From the UHGV virus genome UHGV-0254345: a stretch of DNA of 25,301 bases; one strand, written 5' to 3'. The notes below the pieces were generated by a model. It did not search any database. It was given only the letters and a program-made list of their open reading frames with translations, and was not told the origin of the DNA. Positions 231 to 11,505 of the stretch are shown one piece after another (positions within the stretch are counted from its first letter, which is position 1; every line of letters starts with the position of its first letter). Origin of the DNA: a virus. Both the position numbers and the translations under genes were made by a program.

Positions 231-578
231 ATGATTGATGCAAAAGTGCTTGAAGGGGTTAAAAACTGGCTGAGTATTTACGGGCGTCTGACCTGCGGCA
301 TTCTGGCTGAAAAAATGAATATGCCGCCATCCTCGATGGTTTATTTTCTGCGTGATGCGGTCGATGCCGGGGTGCTGACGGAATGTAACGGTTTTTATGA
401 TATTCCGCGTCCCCGCCCGGTGCAGCCGGTTCGTCGCAAATGCAGCCAGGAAGGTGCGGCTGATGATGTTCAGTGGTGCAGCTTCAGAAAATCCCTGCCG
501 TGGATTGAGGGGCATGATATTCCGTCAATGGCGTGGGAATTTGCTCAGGGCGTTCTGACCTGTATTTGTCCTCCGTAA
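231..578 (+). CDS. putative HTH DNA-binding protein, probably C-terminally truncated by rearrangement
   Basis: ATG at 231 preceded by GGAGG (about 9 nt upstream); N-terminal helix-turn-helix-like segment; last 13 in-frame residues SMAWEFAQGVLTC are encoded by repeat A (521-563), then a 4-codon tail (ICPP) ends inside repeat B. Confidence 0.5.
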   Translation: MIDAKVLEGVKNWLSIYGRLTCGILAEKMNMPPSSMVYFLRDAVDAGVLTECNGFYDIPRPRPVQPVRRKCSQEGAADDVQWCSFRKSLPWIEGHDIPSMAWEFAQGVLTCICPP

Positions 579-747
579 AACGCAGTCCCTTAAAACAAAA
601 ACCACTGATACTGAATTCAAATACCGACCGGCACGCAACATTCAGCACGGCCTCAAGGCGTTTCGCCTCATCCTTAACTTTCTGGCAGTCCTGCTGATAT
701 TTTTGCCACGCGGCCAGCGCGGAAGGGTTTGATGTTTTAAAGAACAT
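484..747 (-). CDS. hypothetical protein; N-terminal part looks like the displaced 5' half of a gene (fused via repeat B to an out-of-frame tail)
   Basis: Minus-strand ATG (plus 745-747) preceded by GGAGG about 8 nt upstream on the minus strand, overlapping the stop of the upstream minus ORF as TAATG; contains repeat-B-encoded peptide FEFSISGFCFKGLRFTEDKY. Confidence 0.4.
   Translation of the reverse strand: MFFKTSNPSALAAWQKYQQDCQKVKDEAKRLEAVLNVACRSVFEFSISGFCFKGLRFTEDKYRSERPEQIPTPLTEYHAPQSTAGIF
521..563. repeat. inverted repeat A (43 bp), partner at 948-990
   Basis: tccgtcaatggcgtgggaatttgctcagggcgttctgacctgt is the exact reverse complement of 948-990 by direct comparison. Confidence 0.9.
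564..619. repeat. inverted repeat B (56 bp), partner at 991-1046
   Basis: atttgtcctccgtaaaacgcagtcccttaaaacaaaaaccactgatactgaattca is the exact reverse complement of 991-1046; abuts repeat A. Confidence 0.9.
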
Positions 748-983
748 TACGCCACCTCCGCAGATATCCCGGCAGGCGCGGCCGTCCGGTCAACAATCAG
801 GTAACGCAGAACGCGCGAGGTGATATTCCAGCCGCTTAAACCGCAGATAATGACACCCAGGCGTATGTCGATATACGCCATCACAAACCGGGGCACGCCT
901 TCTTTCATGGCCTGCTCATCAACTTCAGCCACCACATAAACGGTTTCACAGGTCAGAACGCCCTGAGCAAATTCCCACGCCAT
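747..983 (-). CDS. hypothetical protein fragment; looks like the displaced 3' half of the gene at 231-578
   Basis: Begins MAWEFAQGVLTC (encoded by repeat A' in the same frame as in ORF 231-578); no clear SD before its ATG; stop overlaps next minus ORF start. Confidence 0.35.
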   Translation of the reverse strand: MAWEFAQGVLTCETVYVVAEVDEQAMKEGVPRFVMAYIDIRLGVIICGLSGWNITSRVLRYLIVDRTAAPAGISAEVA

Positions 984-990
984 TGACGGA
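948..990. repeat. inverted repeat A' (reverse complement of 521-563)
   Basis: Exact 43-bp reverse-complement match. Confidence 0.9.
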
Positions 991-1378
991 TGAATTCAGT
1001 ATCAGTGGTTTTTGTTTTAAGGGACTGCGTTTTACGGAGGACAAATATCCTTTTCATCGCGACTTATGGCGAAAACCGACTGCGTCGAATGGCTGGAGCT
1101 GCACGCCGCGCACATCGCGCATTCCCAAAGCCCTGCGCACTGCCTCTGACGAACTGAACAGTCTGTGGCGTGAATATTCGCCCGTCACGTATGCCAGAAC
1201 CGATGCCCTGTTGTTCTGGCTGGGCATTGATTTCTCAGCAATCCTGTATGGCCCTGTGGAGTGGTTCTGCGTTGACGATGTGATTTATCTTCAGTGCGGT
1301 GTAAAACCCGCAAATCAGAAAATGACCGAAATTCTGTCTGATGAGTTTTATGCTGCTGAAAAGCGAGTCAGGGGGTGA
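983..1378 (+). pseudogene. hypothetical protein lacking its native 5' end (start only via TTG, no SD)
   Basis: Frame is open from 854; first candidate start is TTG 983 with no RBS; N-terminal 20 aa duplicate the repeat-B peptide of the minus ORF 484-747; ends 3 nt before the next gene. Confidence 0.4.
991..1046. repeat. inverted repeat B' (reverse complement of 564-619)
   Basis: Exact 56-bp reverse-complement match (a 57th base may also match). Confidence 0.9.
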
Positions 1379-1381
1379 TGC

Positions 1382-1933
1382 ATGATGAAATTACAACCCA
1401 TGGGGCGAAAAGGTCGTGCACCTGCTCATGTCCGCCCGTGGACACCTGAAGAAGATGCGCTGCTGATTGCGCTTTATTCCTCCACCCCGGTTAAGGATAT
1501 TGCCGCCAGAATAAAAAGAAGTGTCTGGGCCGTATATAACCGGACTGGCGTATTGCGCAGTACATACCCGGAGTTGCTGAAATATAAACGACCGCGATTT
1601 ACACCTGATGAAGATAAATTTATCCGAAAAAATGCCCGGACAATGACCTGCCAGCAAATGGGGGATTATCTCGGACGTAATAAAGACTCTGTCAGGTGCC
1701 GCGCAGGAATGATTGGTGCCGGATTAACAAAGTGCGGTGAGTTACGCCCCGGCACACGTATATCTGATGAGGATGTTCGTCTTATACGTGCACTACGGGA
1801 TTCCGATTACCCTCGCCGTCTGTCATTCCGGGAAATTGGCGAAAAGTTTGGCATATCTGAACATTCTGCTCACGCTGTTTATTACCGTCGACGGACCGCC
1901 GAGGACGCTGTATTACGGGAGTTAACGCCATGA
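1382..1933 (+). CDS. putative DNA-binding protein with tandem Myb/SANT-like HTH repeats
   Basis: GGGGG SD-like run upstream of ATG; three repeats of a W/F-T-P-(E/D)-ED…L-like motif (PWTPEEDALL, RFTPDEDKFI, ISDEDVRLI) typical of Myb/SANT-type helix-turn-helix domains; stop overlaps next start (ATGA). Confidence 0.5.
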   Translation: MMKLQPMGRKGRAPAHVRPWTPEEDALLIALYSSTPVKDIAARIKRSVWAVYNRTGVLRSTYPELLKYKRPRFTPDEDKFIRKNARTMTCQQMGDYLGRNKDSVRCRAGMIGAGLTKCGELRPGTRISDEDVRLIRALRDSDYPRRLSFREIGEKFGISEHSAHAVYYRRRTAEDAVLRELTP

Positions 1934-2115
1934 TAAAGAGACTTGTATTTTTCGCAATTATCGTTCCAGTGTGGGGGACTGGTTTTATATTTGCGATTAC
2001 AGGAAACCTGTCCATTATGCCTGACATTTGGTTCTTTATCAGGATGTCGCTCTTCCTGTTTATTATGGATTTTCTCATCGGTATATACATTCGTATTTCC
2101 GGGAGGCGTAAATGA
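1930..2115 (+). CDS. small membrane protein (two predicted TM helices), hypothetical
   Basis: ATGA overlap with upstream stop; 61 aa, very hydrophobic (LVFFAIIVPVWGTGFIFAI… / MSLFLFIMDFLIGIYI); lies in AT-rich segment. Confidence 0.45.
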   Translation: MIKRLVFFAIIVPVWGTGFIFAITGNLSIMPDIWFFIRMSLFLFIMDFLIGIYIRISGRRK

Positions 2116-2962: not shown

Positions 2963-3468
2963 GAGGGAAACTGATATCCGCCATTCATGTGGCAAAGCGC
3001 GAGCTTGCCCTGGATGATGAAACCTATACATTCGTTCTGCTGGCAGCCACCGGCAAATCCAGTTGCCGGGATATGTCACCGGATGAGTTATCCCGCGTGC
3101 TGGATGTTTTCAAAAAACGCGGTTTTAAAGTGCGTCAGAAACCGGTTAACCGGGCCTTAAAACCGGGTACGGTGACCGCCAAAATTCGCGCCATCTGGAA
3201 GGTAATGCACCGGCAGGGCTTTATCGCTGATGGCGGGGAAACGGCCCTTAACCGCTGGGTGAAGTCGCAGACGGCCGCGCAGAACGGTGGCGAAGGTGTG
3301 GCTAACTGGCAGTGGCTGGAGCAACACCCCGCACTGGCCTCGGATGTGCTGGAGCGTCTCAAACGCTGGCACCGTCGCAAGATGCTGGATGTGCTGGGGA
3401 TGTCAGCGCGTACAGTGATGAGTTATGAGCGCGTTTGCAGGCTGTATGAAGAATTCTCCCCTTTTTAA
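2959..3468 (+). CDS. gemA: GemA-like regulatory protein (Mu gp16 family)
   Basis: 169 aa; N-terminal MRGKLISAIHVAKRELALDDETY… resembles the GemA/gp16 family as remembered; position immediately upstream of the Mor/C activator matches Mu-like synteny. Confidence 0.6.
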   Translation: MRGKLISAIHVAKRELALDDETYTFVLLAATGKSSCRDMSPDELSRVLDVFKKRGFKVRQKPVNRALKPGTVTAKIRAIWKVMHRQGFIADGGETALNRWVKSQTAAQNGGEGVANWQWLEQHPALASDVLERLKRWHRRKMLDVLGMSARTVMSYERVCRLYEEFSPF

Positions 3469-3472
3469 CCCC

Positions 3473-3503
3473 AAATCCCGCCACAGCGCGGGATTTTTAT
3501 TTT
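3473..3503 (+). terminator. rho-independent terminator
   Basis: 9-bp perfect stem AAATCCCGC / GCGGGATTT (3473-3481 / 3488-3496), 6-nt loop, followed by TTATTTT; sits 5 nt after the gemA-like stop. Confidence 0.7.
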
Positions 3504-3538
3504 AAACTTGCCCTGTGTAATGATGACCGGAGGCGGGT

Positions 3539-3961
3539 ATGGCTGAAACACAGATGAGCATGTTTGGTGACAGCGAACAGCTGCACGCGCTGATTGACCG
3601 TCTGGATGATATTCCTGATGATGAGCTGAAAAAGAACTGGCCCGGCACGCTGCGTGACCTGGTTGATGTGATCAGTGCTGAACTGCACCGTCAGGGGATT
3701 GAATCTGCTCAGGCGGGAATGCTTGCCCGTAAGGTTGCGGCCGCACAGGCCGGGTACATGGGCGGGCGTGGTTATTATCTCCCGGTCGGTGAATCCCTTT
3801 TCACCGAACTGCGCAATAATGAGATTTTTTCCCGCTGGAGCCAGGGTGAAAAAATTGAAACCCTGCGCCGCCATTACCAGATGTCAGAGACGCAGATTTA
3901 CTCCGTTATCCGCAACCAGCGTCGCCTGCATCAGGAGCGCACGCAGCCCCGGCTTTTCTGA
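3539..3961 (+). CDS. Mor/C-family transcriptional activator of late genes
   Basis: 140 aa; GGAGG 8 nt upstream of ATG; Mor/C-like C-terminal region; located directly upstream of the endolysin as C is in Mu. Confidence 0.75.
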   Translation: MAETQMSMFGDSEQLHALIDRLDDIPDDELKKNWPGTLRDLVDVISAELHRQGIESAQAGMLARKVAAAQAGYMGGRGYYLPVGESLFTELRNNEIFSRWSQGEKIETLRRHYQMSETQIYSVIRNQRRLHQERTQPRLF

Positions 3962-4032
3962 TATTCCGCAAATCCTGCCCCCTTTTTTCCACGGTTACGC
4001 TGGCTCAGAGAACACCATGAGACAGCGTAACA

Positions 4033-4533
4033 ATGCCAAAACTCCCCGCGCCACTGCGTAAAAAGCTGATTGCCCTTGTTCTGGCCGGAGCCGGGACGTT
4101 CACTATTGCCACGCACTACACCGGCTACTGGGAAGGGAAAGAAAACACCACGTATCTCGACCCCACCGGCACCCCCACCATCTGCCACGGCCATACCGGC
4201 CCGGATGTGAAACCGGGTATGACAAAAACCGATGAAGAATGTCTGGAACTGCTGGAAAAGGACATGAAATGGGCCTTTGCGGCCATTGACCGGCGTGTTC
4301 AGGTGCCACTTACCCGTGGTCAGACGGTGGCGCTGGCTTCGTGGATCTTCTGGGCCGGTGAAACGAACTTCCGCAACTCCACGCTTCTGCGCCTTATCAA
4401 TGCCGGACAGATGCCCGCGTCCTGTAAGCAGTATATCCGCTGGATTTATTCAAAGGGGGTGAAACTCCCCGGCCTTGAGGCCCGCCGTTCGGCGGATGAA
4501 TGGTTATGTCGCTACGACTTGCCGAAAGTCTGA
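4033..4533 (+). CDS. lys: SAR endolysin (T4-lysozyme-like, glycoside hydrolase family 24)
   Basis: N-terminal weakly hydrophobic Gly/Ala-rich segment LIALVLAGAGTFTIA (signal-anchor-release type); catalytic E-x8-D-x5-T spacing in WEGKENTTYLDPTGTPT; conserved HGHTGPD and AAIDRRVQVPLT blocks as in Mu/P1-type lysozymes. Confidence 0.8.
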   Translation: MPKLPAPLRKKLIALVLAGAGTFTIATHYTGYWEGKENTTYLDPTGTPTICHGHTGPDVKPGMTKTDEECLELLEKDMKWAFAAIDRRVQVPLTRGQTVALASWIFWAGETNFRNSTLLRLINAGQMPASCKQYIRWIYSKGVKLPGLEARRSADEWLCRYDLPKV

Positions 4534-4597
4534 ACCAGCTCTGTCGACCGCTCATGATTGCGCTGTTATGTGCCGTTGTGGCGCTGCGGGGGGCACT

Positions 4598-4996
4598 GTG
4601 GCTGTGGTGAACAATCCCTTACCGGCCCTGATTGCCGGGGCGAGCATGGCGGCGCTGGGGATTATCGCCGTACTGGTTGCCGCGATATGGGGAATGCACC
4701 AGAAGACGCAGCGTCTTGAGGGCAATAATCAGGTACTTGTGCGTGAGCGGGATGAGGTGCGTCAGGTGCTGGCAAATCAGCAGCACACCCTGCACCTCAT
4801 TTCACAAATCAGTGAGGCGGCCACGAATGAAAAGCAACAGAACATTCAGCACAGCGAGGAGCAGCAGAGCGTTGTCCGCCGGTCGCTGGCAACAGTGCCT
4901 GCGGCCTCTGTTCCTGTGCCTGATGATGTGGCTGAGCGGGTGCGCCGGGCCGTCTGTGAAATACGTGCCTGTGCAGCCGGTTCCGATCCCCGCTGA
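4598..4996 (+). CDS. i-spanin candidate (Rz-like)
   Basis: GTG 4598 preceded by a G-rich SD-like run (alternative ATG 4568); N-terminal TM helix LPALIAGASMAALGIIAVLVAAIWG followed by Q/E/R-rich coiled-coil-like sequence; directly downstream of the endolysin. Confidence 0.5.
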   Translation: MAVVNNPLPALIAGASMAALGIIAVLVAAIWGMHQKTQRLEGNNQVLVRERDEVRQVLANQQHTLHLISQISEAATNEKQQNIQHSEEQQSVVRRSLATVPAASVPVPDDVAERVRRAVCEIRACAAGSDPR

Positions 4997-5198
4997 ATGG
5001 CTGGCTGACTGCCTGGTCCCTCCTGCGCCGGAGCCGTTCACGTTTGGGGCATCGGTCACTTACAACCTGCAACTGCTGGCGGTGATCAAGAACTGCAACG
5101 TGGACAAGGCCAGTATTCGTCGTCTGGAGGCGCGGCGACAACATGAATTTACTGATATGGCCGGAACGCCTGCTGTTCCGGCAGGAAAGACGAAGTAA
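4827..5198 (+). CDS. o-spanin candidate (Rz1-like lipoprotein), overlapped in +1 frame with i-spanin
   Basis: Begins inside the i-spanin gene in another frame and runs past its end; lipobox-like LSGC preceded by hydrophobic LFLCLMMWL; mature part proline-rich (VPVQPVPIPAEW…PPAPEPF). Signal region unusually long, so start is uncertain. Confidence 0.45.
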   Translation: MKSNRTFSTARSSRALSAGRWQQCLRPLFLCLMMWLSGCAGPSVKYVPVQPVPIPAEWLADCLVPPAPEPFTFGASVTYNLQLLAVIKNCNVDKASIRRLEARRQHEFTDMAGTPAVPAGKTK

Positions 5199-5208
5199 GG
5201 AAAAAGGT

Positions 5209-5436
5209 ATGGATGATTCAGATTGTGCTCAGGCTGTCATGGAGCGGGCAACAGAACGCGCCCTTTGTGACCGGCTGACACGTAAGCGCCGGGTGGCGGA
5301 GACACCGGGCAGGCGTGTATGCGCGGACTGCGGGGGTGATATTCCGGCTGCCCGTCTGGTTGCCGTGCCGGATGCCATCCGTTGTGTGAACTGCCAGAAC
5401 ATCATGGAGGCCGGTCATGTGGGTCAGCATCGTTAA
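5209..5436 (+). CDS. TraR/DksA-family C4 zinc-finger protein
   Basis: AAGGA SD before ATG 5209; 75 aa with C-x2-C…C-x2-C (CADCGGD…CVNC). Confidence 0.7.
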   Translation: MDDSDCAQAVMERATERALCDRLTRKRRVAETPGRRVCADCGGDIPAARLVAVPDAIRCVNCQNIMEAGHVGQHR

Positions 5437-5728
5437 AGATTATGTTGTCCCGATCCTGTCGGCAACGGCCACGGCCGGGGGGATCTTCATGGCGCTGATG
5501 CGCAAAACCTTCGTCCCCCGCGAGGCCTTTGAAAAACTCTCCGATCGGGTTGAGCGGGTGGAGAGCCGGATTTCCGGCCTGCCCACGCAGCAGGAGGTGA
5601 ACAGACTCAATATCGAAATCACCACCCTGCGCGGTGAGCTAAAGGCCACCAACGCCACCCTGAAATCCGTCTCTCATCAGAACGAACTGCTGCTGGAGCA
5701 GGCTGTAAGGAAAAAACACAATGAGTGA
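5417..5728 (+). CDS. small membrane protein (N-terminal TM + coiled coil), Mu gp25-like position
   Basis: GGAGG about 7 nt upstream of ATG; TM segment VVPILSATATAGGIFMALM followed by a heptad-like charged region. Confidence 0.5.
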   Translation: MWVSIVKDYVVPILSATATAGGIFMALMRKTFVPREAFEKLSDRVERVESRISGLPTQQEVNRLNIEITTLRGELKATNATLKSVSHQNELLLEQAVRKKHNE

Positions 5729-6011
5729 TTTCATTACTGAAGATCAGCGTCTTGTCATTCTGCGGTCGCTGGCGGATTACAACGGCGAACTGGGCGAATC
5801 CGTGCTTCAGGACTGCCTGGATGATTACGGCCACCGCGTGTCCCGCGACACCGTTCACACCCACATTGCCTGGCTTGCTGAGCAGGGACTGGTGCGTAAG
5901 CGCACGCTTGTTAACGGTTATTTCATCGCTGAACTGACCGGCCGGGGTCAGGATGTGGCGGAAGGTCGTGCCACTGTTCCGGGTGTGAAGAAACCACGCG
6001 CAAGGGGGTAA
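5721..6011 (+). CDS. hypothetical protein (possible winged-helix), Mu gp26-like position
   Basis: AAGGA upstream of ATG; 96 aa; overlaps upstream stop; ends 2 nt before TerS-like start. Confidence 0.5.
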   Translation: MSDFITEDQRLVILRSLADYNGELGESVLQDCLDDYGHRVSRDTVHTHIAWLAEQGLVRKRTLVNGYFIAELTGRGQDVAEGRATVPGVKKPRARG

Positions 6012-6013
6012 CG

Positions 6014-6595
6014 ATGGATAAGCCGACGCGTGGCCGTGTACGCAAGGTGGATTTGCTCCCCGACAGCATCCGTAAGCCGCTGCTGGAAATGCTGCGTGAA
6101 AAACGCCTGACGCAGGTCCAGATCCGCGAGGAAATCAACCGTCTGATCCGTGAGGCAGGCCTGCCGGAAGAGCAGCAGCTTTCACCGGCGGCCATCAGCC
6201 GGGAAGCCTCCCGTAATGAGCTGATTGCCCGTAATCTGCGTGATTTACGCGAGCAGACAAAAGCCATGATGGCCGAACTGGGGGATAAGCCGACCGGTGA
6301 AACCACGGCACTGATTCTGGAGATGTCCCGTGCCCTGATGTACCGCCGTCTGCGTGCCGCCACCGAATCCCTGAACAGCGACAGCGATGTGGATATGCGC
6401 CTTATTAAGGACATCCTCCTGTCGGCACAGCGTGCGGAAAGTGCCGCCGAGCGCAGCATTAAGCGTGAAAAAGAAATCCGGGCCGCATTTGCTGAAGAGA
6501 TGGCGAACGCCGTCACCGACGAGTTGCGCGGCGTGGATGGCATGAGCGAGCAGATAGAATTCCGTATCAGGCAGATGCTGCTTGGTAAGGCGTAG
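6014..6595 (+). CDS. terminase small subunit-like protein (Mu gp27 / DUF3486-like)
   Basis: AAGGGGG SD; 193 aa, basic N-terminus (RGRVRKVDLLPDSIRK) consistent with a DNA-binding small terminase; immediately upstream of large terminase. Confidence 0.6.
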   Translation: MDKPTRGRVRKVDLLPDSIRKPLLEMLREKRLTQVQIREEINRLIREAGLPEEQQLSPAAISREASRNELIARNLRDLREQTKAMMAELGDKPTGETTALILEMSRALMYRRLRAATESLNSDSDVDMRLIKDILLSAQRAESAAERSIKREKEIRAAFAEEMANAVTDELRGVDGMSEQIEFRIRQMLLGKA

Positions 6596-6605
6596 GAGGT
6601 GAATC

Positions 6606-6854
6606 GTGGTAACAGATAACCGCTCACTGATGAGCAGTGCTCATCAGAAGGCATTCAGTCTTGCAACACAGTTACCTCCTGAAACCATAAAAGCGTGTCG
6701 TGAGTTGACTGAACTCAGCATTGCCGGGGAAATATCCCTGGAACAACTGCATTCGCTGCTGGCAGGGGCTGTCACTGATGAGTTGAGTGGCGTGGACGTG
6801 ATGACTGAAGAGCTTGAGTTCCGAATCAAAAGCATTCTGACAGGTAAAGCCTGA
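6606..6854 (+). CDS. small protein carrying a duplicated TerS C-terminal tail (function unknown)
   Basis: GTG start with AGGAGG 6 nt upstream; stop overlaps TerL ATG; last 28 aa AVTDELSGVDVMTEELEFRIKSILTGKA match the TerS C-terminus AVTDELRGVDGMSEQIEFRIRQMLLGKA at 19/28 positions. Confidence 0.6.
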   Translation: MVTDNRSLMSSAHQKAFSLATQLPPETIKACRELTELSIAGEISLEQLHSLLAGAVTDELSGVDVMTEELEFRIKSILTGKA

Positions 6855-11422: not shown

Positions 11423-11505
11423 CGGTCAGTGGCGGGGGTCGAACCCGCATACATGATCCACCCGGAGGCAGGCACCGACTTTACCAGTTAAGCGTACACT
11501 GACCG
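11423..11505 (-). other. tRNA-like structured element (acceptor-like stem plus canonical T-arm; no anticodon arm found)
   Basis: On the minus strand: 9-bp perfect stem (11423-11431 with 11497-11505) stacked on a 5-bp stem GCGGG/CCCGC closing a 7-nt loop TTCGACC (T-loop-like); a D-arm-like hairpin with GG loop is possible; hand search found no 5-bp anticodon stem. Confidence 0.3.

What the first reader, a model, noticed from the sequence alone, without database searches (positions are those of the whole stretch)
4033..5728. Lysis cassette with SAR endolysin and overlapped spanins but no recognisable holin
The endolysin has an N-terminal signal-anchor-release-like domain and the E-x8-D-x5-T catalytic spacing. 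It is followed by an Rz-like i-spanin candidate and, in a +1 frame beginning inside it and extending beyond it, a proline-rich lipoprotein (lipobox LSGC) that is an o-spanin candidate. No classical multi-TM holin ORF is adjacent. The single-TM coiled-coil protein at 5417-5728 is a candidate for the membrane factor that releases the SAR endolysin, by analogy with reports on Mu as I recall them; this assignment is inference only. The o-spanin signal region is unusually long, so its true start is uncertain.
Basis: partly seen in the sequence, partly recalled or inferred. Interest (0 to 1): 0.45.

Follow-up and report, generated by a model that had tools for sequence, protein, structure and literature searches.

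The report
Mu-type holin-less lysis cassette with releasin
This is the lysis gene block of a Mu-like prophage of E. coli, built gene for gene like that of phage Mu (membrane-anchored lysozyme, two overlapping spanin genes, and a homologue of the Mu "releasin" in place of a holin), so it is a further example of a system described in 2022 and not a new one.

Summary
Window 3539-6011 matches the phage Mu late lysis region gene for gene:
- C-type activator
- SAR endolysin, 4033-4533 (39% identical to Mu gp22; E34-x8-D43-x5-T49)
- i-spanin, GTG 4598-4996
- overlapped o-spanin, ATG 4827-5198 (lipobox LSGC, Cys39)
- DksA/TraR zinc finger
- DUF2730 protein, 5417-5728 (33% identical to Mu gp25; Pfam 1e-22)
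- gp26 homologue

Chamblee et al. 2022 showed that Mu has no holin and that gp25, the "releasin", frees its SAR endolysin. No holin family match or conserved multi-TMD gene accompanies the cassette here. The same cassette occurs in 231 of 5426 complete E. coli genomes, so this is a new member of a known kind and of low interest.

The work added three things:
- The o-spanin start is ATG 4827 and the i-spanin start is GTG 4598. RefSeq starts the o-spanin after its lipobox.
- This DUF2730 cytoplasmic domain is net +3, whereas Mu gp25 is anionic.
- An unannotated 34-36-codon membrane ORF (4500/4506-4610) lies between lys and the i-spanin. It is intact in five diverged clades, absent from Mu, and of unknown function.

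The parts
3539..3961 (+). Mor/C-family late transcription activator (Mu C equivalent), immediately upstream of lys
   Evidence: PF08765 Mor 4.9e-31; phrog_532 'late transcriptional activator'. It is 40% identical to Mu C (E 3e-35) against 27% to Mu Mor. It holds the position C holds in Mu.
3962..4032 (+). Intergenic region that aligns with the Mu late promoter Plys (putative C-dependent promoter of the lysis operon)
   Evidence: The region aligns with the Mu C-lys intergenic region, which carries the annotated late promoter. Shared blocks are ccGCAAATCC and gTTAcgCT, followed by CAGAGAA. No + strand terminator-like site lies between 3500 and 6100. Promoter function is inferred.
4033..4533 (+). 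SAR endolysin (T4-lysozyme-like muramidase, Mu gp22 type)
   Evidence: PF00959 1.2e-35; 39% identical to Mu gp22, E 3e-32. E34, D43 and T49 are invariant. The cytoplasmic N-terminus carries four basic residues (K3, R9, K10, K11), followed by a weakly hydrophobic stretch rich in Gly, Ala and Thr at 12-29.
4506..4610 (+). Unannotated small ORF of 34 aa from ATG 4506 (36 aa from ATG 4500): MVMSLRLAESLNQLCRPLMIALLCAVVALRGALWLW. It would be a tail-anchored single-TMD peptide. It overlaps the 3' end of lys and the 5' end of the i-spanin gene.
   Evidence: The ORF is intact in 39 loci with 23 distinct DNA versions. These ORFs have identical length and stop position. It is also present, one codon longer, in the two more distant clades L084 and L157. 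The spacing WR-12 residues-LRG is invariant. pN/pS is 0.5-0.6 in this frame, 0.9-1.0 in the lys frame and 2.1-2.6 in the i-spanin frame. There is no convincing conserved RNA structure. It has no Pfam or PHROG match and is not among 15 billion predicted proteins. Expression and function are unknown.
4598..4996 (+). i-spanin (Rz / P2 LysB / Mu gp23 type), 132 aa, N-in C-out TMD about residues 10-33, periplasmic helical domain, Cys120 and Cys125
   Evidence: phrog_214 1.5e-31; 25% identical to Mu gp23. GTG 4598 is kept in the window clade and lines up with the ATG or GTG start of four sister clades, always 10-11 nt before the small-ORF stop. The ATG 4568 chosen by RefSeq is GTG in relatives.
4827..5198 (+). 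o-spanin (Rz1 / P2 LysC / Mu gp23.1 type), 123-aa precursor, lipobox LSGC with Cys39, 85-aa Pro-rich mature lipoprotein; 'overlapped' architecture (170 nt inside the i-spanin gene, 202 nt beyond it)
   Evidence: PF23793 LysC 1.7e-17; phrog_3001 1.8e-41; 42% identical to Mu gp23.1. ATG 4827 and Cys39 are conserved in the window, L008, L040 and L084 clades, and in L040 and L084 it is the only usable start. The +2 residue is Ala, consistent with outer-membrane sorting.
5209..5436 (+). DksA/TraR-type C4 zinc-finger protein, 75 aa, in the position of Mu gp24; no assigned lysis role
   Evidence: PF01258 8e-12; phrog_54 3.7e-17. Only weak similarity to the CxxC...CxxC region of Mu gp24.
5417..5728 (+). 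DUF2730 protein, homologue of the Mu gp25 releasin: MWVSIVKD (periplasmic) / YVVPILSATATAGGIFMALM (TMD) / RK junction / 75-aa helical cytoplasmic domain
   Evidence: PF10805 1.2e-22, covering residues 6-97 of 103; phrog_736 2.6e-32; 33% identical to Mu gp25, E 2e-17. GGAGG lies 7 nt upstream of the ATG. The AlphaFold2 model has helices 2-30, 35-52 and 58-102, with pLDDT about 90 over 61-100. It is the fourth annotated gene downstream of lys (fifth counting the small ORF), followed by the gp26 and gp27 homologues as in Mu.

Best explanation
The region is the late lysis operon of a Mu-like transposable prophage, and it most likely works as shown for phage Mu.

1. The C-type activator (3539-3961) turns on a Plys-like promoter in front of lys.
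2. The endolysin is exported by the Sec system and stays tethered to the inner membrane, enzymatically inactive. It is held there by its N-terminal signal-anchor-release (SAR) segment, with the basic R9-K10-K11 cluster on the cytoplasmic face.
3. No holin takes part. The DUF2730 protein, which has an N-out/C-in single TMD and a helical cytoplasmic domain, promotes exit of the SAR segment from the bilayer. The released enzyme refolds and degrades the peptidoglycan.
4. The i-spanin and the lipoprotein o-spanin, encoded by overlapping genes, then disrupt the outer membrane.

Shown here: the identity, order, gene starts and sequence features of all components, and their homology to the Mu proteins. 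Inferred by homology to Mu experiments: SAR behaviour, dependence on the DUF2730 protein, and the absence of holin control.
For: - One-to-one homology with Mu: C 40%, gp22 39%, gp23 25%, gp23.1 42%, gp25 33%, gp26 63%, gp27 57% identity. The gene order matches the annotated Mu record.
- Family matches: Phage_lysozyme, LysC, DUF2730, Mor, Mu Gp27 and GemA; endolysin and Rz-like spanin PHROGs.
- The catalytic triad is invariant, and the N-terminal pattern of basic residues followed by a Gly/Ala-rich hydrophobic stretch is kept across all DUF2730-linked relatives.
- The DUF2730 protein has the family traits listed by Chamblee et al.: a profile match that includes the N-terminal TMD, an Arg-Lys pair at the TMD/cytoplasm junction, a position within five genes downstream of the endolysin, and type I similarity to gp25.
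- Mu experiments (PMC9239132): deleting gene 25 abolishes timely lysis; gp22 plus gp25 suffice for lysis; gp25 also releases heterologous SAR endolysins; and no Mu membrane protein behaves as a holin.
- No holin family matched any ORF tested, including all other TMD-containing ORFs of the prophage. The only multi-TMD small ORF (1930-2115) occurs in only about 8 of 33 close relatives that share the cassette.
- The core order is the same in all 67 related loci; the Zn-finger gene was not detected in 7 of them. The cassette is in 231 of 5426 complete E. coli genomes.
Against: - Function rests on 33-39% identity to the tested Mu proteins. Nothing was tested for this prophage.
- In Mu, dependence on gp25 maps to K6 and K7, while K9 is irrelevant. 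Here positions 6 and 7 are Ala and Pro, and the basic cluster sits at 9-11, so dependence cannot be read directly from the sequence.
- Chamblee et al. describe the gp25 cytoplasmic domain as predominantly anionic. Here it is net +3 (14 K/R, 11 D/E) against -2 in Mu.
- DUF2730 proteins of other Mu-like phages are paired with endolysins that lack SAR domains (Klebsiella phage Kp4866-3). The ancestral function of the family may therefore not be SAR release.
- A conserved small membrane ORF (4506-4610), absent from Mu, lies inside the cassette and could contribute to lysis.
Confidence: 0.75

Rival explanations
1. The SAR endolysin releases itself spontaneously. The DUF2730 protein is dispensable for lysis here and serves another late function, for example one linked to the adjacent gp26, gp27 and terminase genes.
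For: Many SAR endolysins leave the membrane at a basal rate without help (background in PMC9239132). The residues that make Mu gp22 dependent on gp25 (K6, K7) are not conserved here. DUF2730 genes also accompany endolysins without SAR domains. The gene sits at the boundary with the packaging genes.
Against: The endolysin has four basic residues before the SAR segment. That is at the top of the range seen in 70 relatives, most of which have two or three. Chamblee et al. [quoted passage not shown] The lys-DUF2730 pairing is kept in every related locus examined. Without a holin or a releasin, lysis timing would be uncontrolled.
Confidence: 0.12
2. The phage does have a cryptic membrane-depolarising lysis trigger. 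The candidates are the conserved 34-36-aa single-TMD peptide at 4506-4610 and the 61-aa two-TMD ORF at 1930-2115. Either would act as a minimal holin or pinholin and release the SAR endolysin by collapsing the proton-motive force.
For: The small ORF lies inside the late lysis operon, between lys and the spanins. It is intact in five diverged clades and has the lowest pN/pS of the three frames. The 61-aa ORF has two TMDs and a basic C-terminal tail, as class II holins do.
Against: Neither ORF matches any holin family or any other family. The 61-aa ORF lies in the variable early region and is missing from most close relatives that carry the same cassette. The small ORF is absent from Mu and from locus L083, whose cassettes are otherwise equivalent. 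Part of its conservation is explained by overlap with the lys 3' end and with the ribosome-binding site and start codon of the i-spanin. In Mu, DNP delays lysis instead of triggering it.
Confidence: 0.08
3. The N-terminal hydrophobic segment of the endolysin is an ordinary cleavable Sec signal peptide. The enzyme would then be secreted in active form, and lysis would be timed by expression level alone.
For: The segment ends in T-I-A followed by T, which could serve as a signal peptidase I site (read directly from the sequence).
Against: The segment is homologous to, and of the same composition as, the Mu gp22 N-terminus, which was shown experimentally to be a SAR domain. Constitutive secretion of an active muramidase would kill the host before virions are assembled.
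Confidence: 0.05

Closest known systems
Phage Mu lysis cassette: gp22 SAR endolysin, gp23/gp23.1 spanins, gp24, gp25 releasin (Chamblee et al. 2022, mBio 13:e00813-22; GenBank AF083977)
   Same: The gene order is the same, from the C activator to the small terminase gene. Every protein is homologous, at 25-63% identity. The endolysin is a SAR muramidase with an E-D-T triad. The spanin genes have the 'overlapped' architecture. The DUF2730 protein has an N-terminal TMD and an Arg-Lys/Arg-Arg junction. No holin family member is present.
   Different: - Mu genes 18-20 (including the membrane proteins gp19 and gp20) have no counterpart, and there is no separate mor gene. GemA is followed by a terminator-like hairpin and then a single C-like gene.
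- The basic cluster of the endolysin is at residues 9-11, not 6-7. Its SAR segment has 2 Gly against 5 in the corresponding Mu segment (Chamblee et al. count six Gly in a stretch of seven).
- The releasin homologue has a cytoplasmic domain of net charge +3 (-2 in Mu) and a weakly hydrophobic TMD rich in Ala, Gly, Ser and Thr.
- A 64-nt spacer holding a conserved 34-36-codon membrane ORF separates lys from the i-spanin gene. In Mu these two genes overlap.
- The gp24 position holds a clear DksA/TraR zinc finger.
Phage P2 lysis genes K-lysA-lysB-lysC (from my own knowledge of the P2 literature; not checked here)
   Same: The o-spanin belongs to the Pfam 'Rz1-like LysC' family. The spanin genes are overlapped. 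A membrane-protein gene lies between the endolysin and the i-spanin (lysA in P2, the small ORF here).
   Different: P2 has a holin (Y) and, as I recall, a cytoplasmic endolysin with no SAR domain. LysA is much larger and spans the membrane several times. P2 has no DUF2730 gene.
Pinholin / SAR-endolysin systems (phage 21 S21-R21, P1 Lyz, as described in PMC9239132)
   Same: A membrane-tethered SAR muramidase is activated by release from the inner membrane and followed by a two-component spanin.
   Different: Those systems are triggered by a holin or pinholin that depolarises the membrane. No such gene is recognisable here, and the homologous Mu system is not triggered by DNP.

Membership tests
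SAR endolysin, Mu gp22 type (T4-lysozyme-like muramidase) | Phage_lysozyme (PF00959) catalytic domain with the E-x8-D/C-x5-T triad | tested here: met
   PF00959 1.2e-35. E34, D43 and T49 are invariant in the alignment with Mu gp22 and five relatives.
SAR endolysin, Mu gp22 type (T4-lysozyme-like muramidase) | N-terminal, weakly hydrophobic, charge-free segment rich in Gly, Ala, Ser and Thr, preceded by basic residues | tested here: met
   Residues 12-29 are LIALVLAGAGTFTIATHY: 9 of 18 are Gly, Ala or Thr, and mean hydropathy is 1.51 against 1.48 for Mu gp22. They are preceded by K3, R9, K10 and K11.
SAR endolysin, Mu gp22 type (T4-lysozyme-like muramidase) | Membrane-tethered, uncleaved, and releasable by depolarisation, a pinholin or a releasin | not testable with these tools
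   This needs fractionation and co-expression experiments. It has been shown only for Mu gp22.
Two-component spanin, overlapped architecture | i-spanin: N-terminal TMD (N-in, C-out) followed by a helical periplasmic domain | tested here: met
   The TMD is about residues 10-33 (maximum KD 2.61). phrog_214 'Rz-like spanin' 1.5e-31; 25% identical to Mu gp23. Topology is inferred, because no dedicated TM predictor was available.
Two-component spanin, overlapped architecture | o-spanin: lipoprotein signal with a lipobox Cys, no Asp at +2, and a short Pro-rich mature protein | tested here: met
   FLCLMM-WL-S-G-C39 fits the PROSITE lipobox pattern when applied by hand. The +2 residue is Ala, and 11 of 85 mature residues are Pro. 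PF23793 LysC 1.7e-17. One caveat: Cys39 lies beyond the 15-35 range of the classical rule. The 26-residue n-region is conserved in four clades. SignalP and LipoP were not available.
Two-component spanin, overlapped architecture | The o-spanin gene starts inside the i-spanin gene, in the +1 frame, and ends beyond it | tested here: met
   4598-4996 and 4827-5198 overlap by 170 nt. The arrangement is the same as Mu 23/23.1.
Releasin (DUF2730 type I, Mu gp25) | DUF2730 (PF10805) match over the whole protein, including the N-terminal TMD | tested here: met
   1.2e-22; residues 6-97 of 103 match profile positions 3-101 of 102.
Releasin (DUF2730 type I, Mu gp25) | Significant sequence similarity to Mu gp25 itself (type I of Chamblee et al.) | tested here: met
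   33% identity over 94 residues, E 2e-17. Shared motifs are M-R-(R/K)-x-F at the junction and S-H-Q-x-E-L-L-L-E-x-A-V near the C-terminus.
Releasin (DUF2730 type I, Mu gp25) | N-out/C-in single TMD with a twin Arg or Arg-Lys at the cytoplasmic junction | tested here: met
   The layout is MWVSIVKD / YVVPILSATATAGGIFMALM / RK.... The AlphaFold2 model has a helix at 2-30. Orientation is inferred from the positive-inside rule.
Releasin (DUF2730 type I, Mu gp25) | Encoded within five genes downstream of the endolysin, in the late operon and paired with a SAR endolysin | tested here: met
   It is the fourth annotated gene after lys. No terminator-like site lies between them. The pairing is kept in all related loci.
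Releasin (DUF2730 type I, Mu gp25) | Predominantly anionic cytoplasmic domain (a described property of gp25, not a criterion for the family) | tested here: not met
   Net +3 (14 K/R, 11 D/E) against -2 for gp25. This bears on the proposed 'acidic microenvironment' mechanism, not on family membership.
Releasin (DUF2730 type I, Mu gp25) | Required for, or accelerates, release of the cognate SAR endolysin | not testable with these tools
   Needs genetic and co-expression assays like those in PMC9239132.
Holin / pinholin | Small late-operon membrane protein that matches a holin family, or a conserved multi-TMD ORF that travels with the cassette | tested here: not met
   No holin hit in Pfam or PHROGs for any ORF tested. 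The ORF at 1930-2115 has two TMDs but lies in the early region and is not conserved with the cassette. The small ORF at 4506-4610 has one TMD and no family. Lethal triggering by depolarisation cannot be tested here.

The most novel reading that the evidence does not exclude
The unannotated 34-36-aa tail-anchored membrane peptide encoded at 4500/4506-4610 may be a genuine additional component of this holin-less lysis cassette. It lies between the SAR endolysin and the i-spanin, and it is conserved in five diverged clades but absent from Mu. Possible roles are a timing or regulatory factor acting on the SAR segment, on the releasin TMD or on the i-spanin anchor, or a minimal depolarising peptide. 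The more ordinary alternatives are an upstream ORF that merely couples translation to the i-spanin, or a leftover of an older i-spanin 5' end.
Probability: 0.2. Interest if true: 0.55.

Novelty: new member of a known kind. Interest (0 to 1): 0.22.

Why it matters
For annotation, the Mu-like prophage family found in about 4% of complete E. coli genomes, including O157:H7 strains, can be labelled SAR endolysin / i-spanin / o-spanin / releasin. RefSeq currently labels these genes 'lysozyme / hypothetical or endopeptidase / LysC without its signal peptide / DUF2730'.

For mechanism, this is a second, well-diverged releasin-endolysin pair. The basic cluster of the endolysin is shifted from positions 6-7 to 9-11. 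The releasin cytoplasmic domain is net positive and not anionic. If the pair proves functional, those differences argue against the 'acidic microenvironment' model. They also point to the few motifs shared with Mu gp25 (MR[RK]xF, and SHQxELLLExAV) as the places to mutate.

The conserved small membrane ORF is a cheap, testable candidate for an overlooked lysis-cassette gene.

Tried and rejected
- Holin elsewhere in the prophage. I scanned every RefSeq CDS of the 39-kb prophage for hydrophobic segments. Apart from the i-spanin and the DUF2730 protein, the small proteins with strong or N-terminal hydrophobic segments are a 61-aa two-TMD ORF (1930-2115), a 98-aa ORF (2666-2962) and a DUF1378 protein outside the window. 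None matches a holin family. The 61-aa ORF is missing from most close relatives, so I rejected it as a conserved lysis gene.
- Upstream start for the i-spanin (ATG 4568 as in RefSeq, or ATG 4496). ATG 4568 is GTG in relatives. ATG 4496 is not conserved, and locus L040 has a stop in that frame. That frame also has pN/pS above 2 in the spacer. Rejected.
- TTG 4872 as the o-spanin start, which would give a canonical 24-residue lipoprotein signal. Alternative starts are not conserved in position, and L040 and L084 have none, whereas the ATG and Cys39 are conserved. Judged unlikely.
- A conserved RNA structure to explain the conservation of the lys/i-spanin spacer. RNAalifold gave -6.6 kcal/mol with a covariation term of -0.5. 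Not supported.
- A link between the number of N-terminal basic residues and the presence of a DUF2730 gene, tested across 70 endolysin relatives. Relatives without a DUF2730 gene nearby also carry 2-3 basic residues. Charge count alone is not diagnostic.
- Searches for the small ORF. The degenerate-pattern scan found no block conserved enough to search with. The exact-sequence look-up found nothing.
- tRNA and Rfam scans of the window found nothing.
Full report
**What the window is.** Positions 3500-6100 are 100% identical to the chromosome of E. coli FORC_069. Related copies at 89-97% identity occur in 231 of 5426 complete E. coli genomes, including many O157:H7 strains. The only phage records that match are two Stx phages carrying an 'inserted Bacteriophage Mu-like phage'. 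In FORC_069 the element is a prophage of about 39 kb inserted in a fimbrial usher gene. It has a Mu-type transposase, Gam, GemA, Mu-type head and tail genes, an invertase and Com. By my reading it is the family of O157 Sakai prophage Sp18, described as an apparently intact Mu-like prophage (PMC2669165). I did not verify that identification directly.

**Checking the observation.** All the listed features are present.
- *Endolysin.* ORF 4033-4533 is a Phage_lysozyme protein (1.2e-35). Its triad E34-x8-D43-x5-T49 falls in invariant alignment columns with E37, D46 and T52 of Mu gp22. Its N-terminus is MPKLPAPLRKK followed by LIALVLAGAGTFTIATHY. That segment is charge-free, weakly hydrophobic and rich in Gly, Ala and Thr, with the same mean hydropathy as the experimentally defined SAR segment of Mu gp22.
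- *i-spanin.* The next gene is an Rz-like i-spanin (phrog_214 1.5e-31).
- *o-spanin.* ORF 4827-5198 lies in the +1 frame and overlaps the i-spanin gene by 170 nt. It is a LysC/Rz1-type lipoprotein (PF23793 1.7e-17). It has lipobox LSGC, Ala at +2 and 13% Pro in the mature part.
- *DUF2730 protein.* ORF 5417-5728 matches DUF2730 end to end (1.2e-22). AlphaFold2 predicts an N-terminal helix (2-30) and two cytoplasmic helices (35-52 and 58-102), with pLDDT about 90 for residues 61-100.
- *No terminator.* No + strand terminator-like site interrupts 3500-6100.

**What it is.** The region matches the Mu late lysis region gene for gene (annotated record AF083977). Identities to the Mu proteins are:

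| Mu protein | Identity |
|---|---|
| C | 40% (27% to Mor) |
| gp22 | 39% |
| gp23 | 25% |
| gp23.1 | 42% |
| gp25 | 33% (E 2e-17) |
| gp26 | 63% |
| gp27 | 57% |

The C-lys intergenic region aligns with the Mu late promoter Plys. All 67 loci retrieved through the DUF2730 protein have the same core order; the Zn-finger gene was not detected in 7 of them, and some loci are cut short. Three further loci with that order came from searches with the endolysin (L083, L084, L157).

**How it most likely works.** Chamblee et al. 2022 (PMC9239132) established the following for Mu:
- gp22 is a SAR endolysin, and gp23/gp23.1 are the spanin subunits.
- Deleting gene 25 abolishes timely lysis, and chloroform rescues it.
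- gp22 plus gp25 are sufficient for lysis.
- Dependence on gp25 comes from basic residues K6 and K7 in the cytoplasmic N-terminus of gp22.
- gp25 also speeds the release of unrelated SAR endolysins.

The family traits they list are all met here: a DUF2730 match that includes the TMD, N-out/C-in topology, an RR or RK junction, and a position within five genes of the endolysin (see the membership table). I therefore take 5417-5728 to be the releasin of this prophage and the cassette to be holin-less. This is inference by homology, and I put it at about 0.75.

**Differences from Mu.**
- The endolysin has four basic residues, with R9-K10-K11 lying directly against the SAR segment. Positions 6 and 7 are Ala and Pro.
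- The DUF2730 cytoplasmic domain is net +3, against -2 in Mu. Its TMD is itself rich in Ala, Gly, Ser and Thr.
- Mu genes 18-20 and a separate mor gene have no counterpart. GemA ends at a terminator-like hairpin (3473-3496), and a single C-like gene follows.
- The gp24 slot holds a clear DksA/TraR zinc finger.

**Gene starts.**
ATG 4827 and a lipobox Cys at residue 39 are conserved in the window, L008, L040 and L084 clades. In L040 and L084 no other start codon precedes the hydrophobic core, so the 26-residue basic n-region is a family trait. RefSeq starts this gene at 4956 or 4980, downstream of the lipobox, which removes the signal peptide.
- *i-spanin.* GTG 4598 aligns with the ATG or GTG used in the sister clades. 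RefSeq's choices vary between 4568, 4598 and 4646.

**Is there a hidden holin?** A hydropathy scan of all prophage CDSs found few other small proteins with TMD-like segments.
- A 61-aa two-TMD ORF lies at 1930-2115 in the early region. It has no family match and occurs in only about 8 of 33 close relatives that share the cassette. It is accessory.
- A 98-aa ORF (2666-2962) and a DUF1378 protein outside the window also have no holin match.

**An overlooked small ORF.**
- *Evidence that it is coding.*
  - It is intact, with identical length and stop position, in 39 loci (23 distinct DNA versions).
  - It is also present, one codon longer, in the more distant clades L084 and L157. That makes five clades, whose endolysins are only 48-83% identical to the window's.
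  - The spacing WR-12 hydrophobic residues-LRG is invariant.
  - In the part that overlaps no other gene, pN/pS is 0.5-0.6 in this frame, against 0.9-1.0 and 2.1-2.6 in the other two. Variable columns by codon position number 11, 7 and 15.
  - RNAalifold finds no convincing conserved structure.
- *Where it is absent.* It is missing from Mu and from L083, where the i-spanin start overlaps the end of lys.
- *Cautions.*
  - Its 5' end is constrained by the lys codons DEWLC.
  - Its R-G codons (CGGGG) and its last codons coincide with the ribosome-binding site and start codon of the i-spanin. That start codon always lies 10-11 nt before the small-ORF stop.
  - It could therefore be mainly a translational-coupling ORF, or a leftover of an older i-spanin 5' end. 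Its C-terminal ...GALWLW resembles the ...GGWLWQ of the i-spanin TMD in L083.
- *Database status.* It has no Pfam or PHROG match. The exact sequences are absent from a collection of 15 billion predicted proteins.
- *My estimates.* About 0.6 that it is translated and about 0.2 that it has a role in lysis.

**Verdict.** The finding is real and was read correctly, but the kind of system is already known (Mu, 2022). It is a new, diverged member of a known kind. Its value is in annotation and in comparison with Mu. The small ORF is a modest new lead.

Noticed in passing
window 4500-4610 (+): Unannotated 34-36-codon single-TMD ORF between the endolysin and the i-spanin. It is conserved in five diverged clades and absent from Mu. 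It has no family match and is not in a collection of 15 billion predicted proteins. The i-spanin start codon always lies 10-11 nt before its stop codon.
   Followed up: yes
window 521-1047: Relative to E. coli FORC_069, window 563-990 is a perfect inverted copy of a 428-bp early-region segment. The junctions are duplicated, giving 43-nt and 57-nt perfect inverted repeats at 521-563/948-990 and 563-619/991-1047. The rearrangement splits two early ORFs. It could be a natural inversion or an assembly artefact; I could not tell which.
   Followed up: partly
window 4827-5198 and 4568-4996; loci L002-L006: RefSeq/PGAP starts the o-spanin ('LysC') at 4956 or 4980, downstream of its lipobox. The annotated protein therefore lacks its signal peptide and lipidated Cys. 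The i-spanin start differs between genomes, and its product name varies between 'hypothetical protein' and 'endopeptidase'.
   Followed up: yes
window 6606-6854 (+): An 82-aa ORF (phrog_30922) sits between the small and large terminase genes. Its last 30 residues are 57% identical to the C-terminus of Mu gp27 (the terminase small subunit, homologue of 6014-6595), so it looks like a partial duplication. O157:H7 relatives lack it; there gp27 abuts the terminase gene.
   Followed up: partly
window 3468-3961: There is only one Mor/C-family activator gene and no counterpart of Mu genes 18-20. GemA is followed by a terminator-like hairpin (3473-3496) and then the C-like gene. This suggests a simpler early-to-late transcription cascade than the early/middle/late cascade of Mu.
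   Followed up: partly
window 1930-2115 (+): A 61-aa ORF with two predicted TMDs and a basic C-terminal tail (holin-like in shape) lies in the variable early region. It has no family match and occurs in only about 8 of 33 close relatives.
   Followed up: partly
window 5209-5436 (+): A DksA/TraR-type C4 zinc-finger gene is embedded in the lysis cassette at the position of Mu gp24, overlapping the start of the DUF2730 gene by 20 nt. Its function is unknown. It was detected in 60 of the 67 DUF2730-retrieved loci, plus the three loci found through the endolysin.
   Followed up: no
L067:2557-3237: In one Mu-clade relative the cytoplasmic N-terminus of the SAR endolysin carries a tandem (PKS)n expansion, MPKIPKSPKSPKSPKSPKSPKSPKSPKSLKAS.... 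This adds many lysines just before the SAR segment.
   Followed up: no
window ~11424-11503 (-): RefSeq annotates a 'tRNA-OTHER' at this position in FORC_069. ARAGORN finds no tRNA or tmRNA anywhere in the window, and Rfam finds nothing at gathering thresholds.
   Followed up: partly
L083:3001-3871: In this relative (endolysin 52% identical) the endolysin frame has no stop at the usual position. It reads on for about 28 codons across the i-spanin start, and the small ORF is absent. This may show the ancestral lys/i-spanin overlap, or it may be a sequencing error.
   Followed up: no
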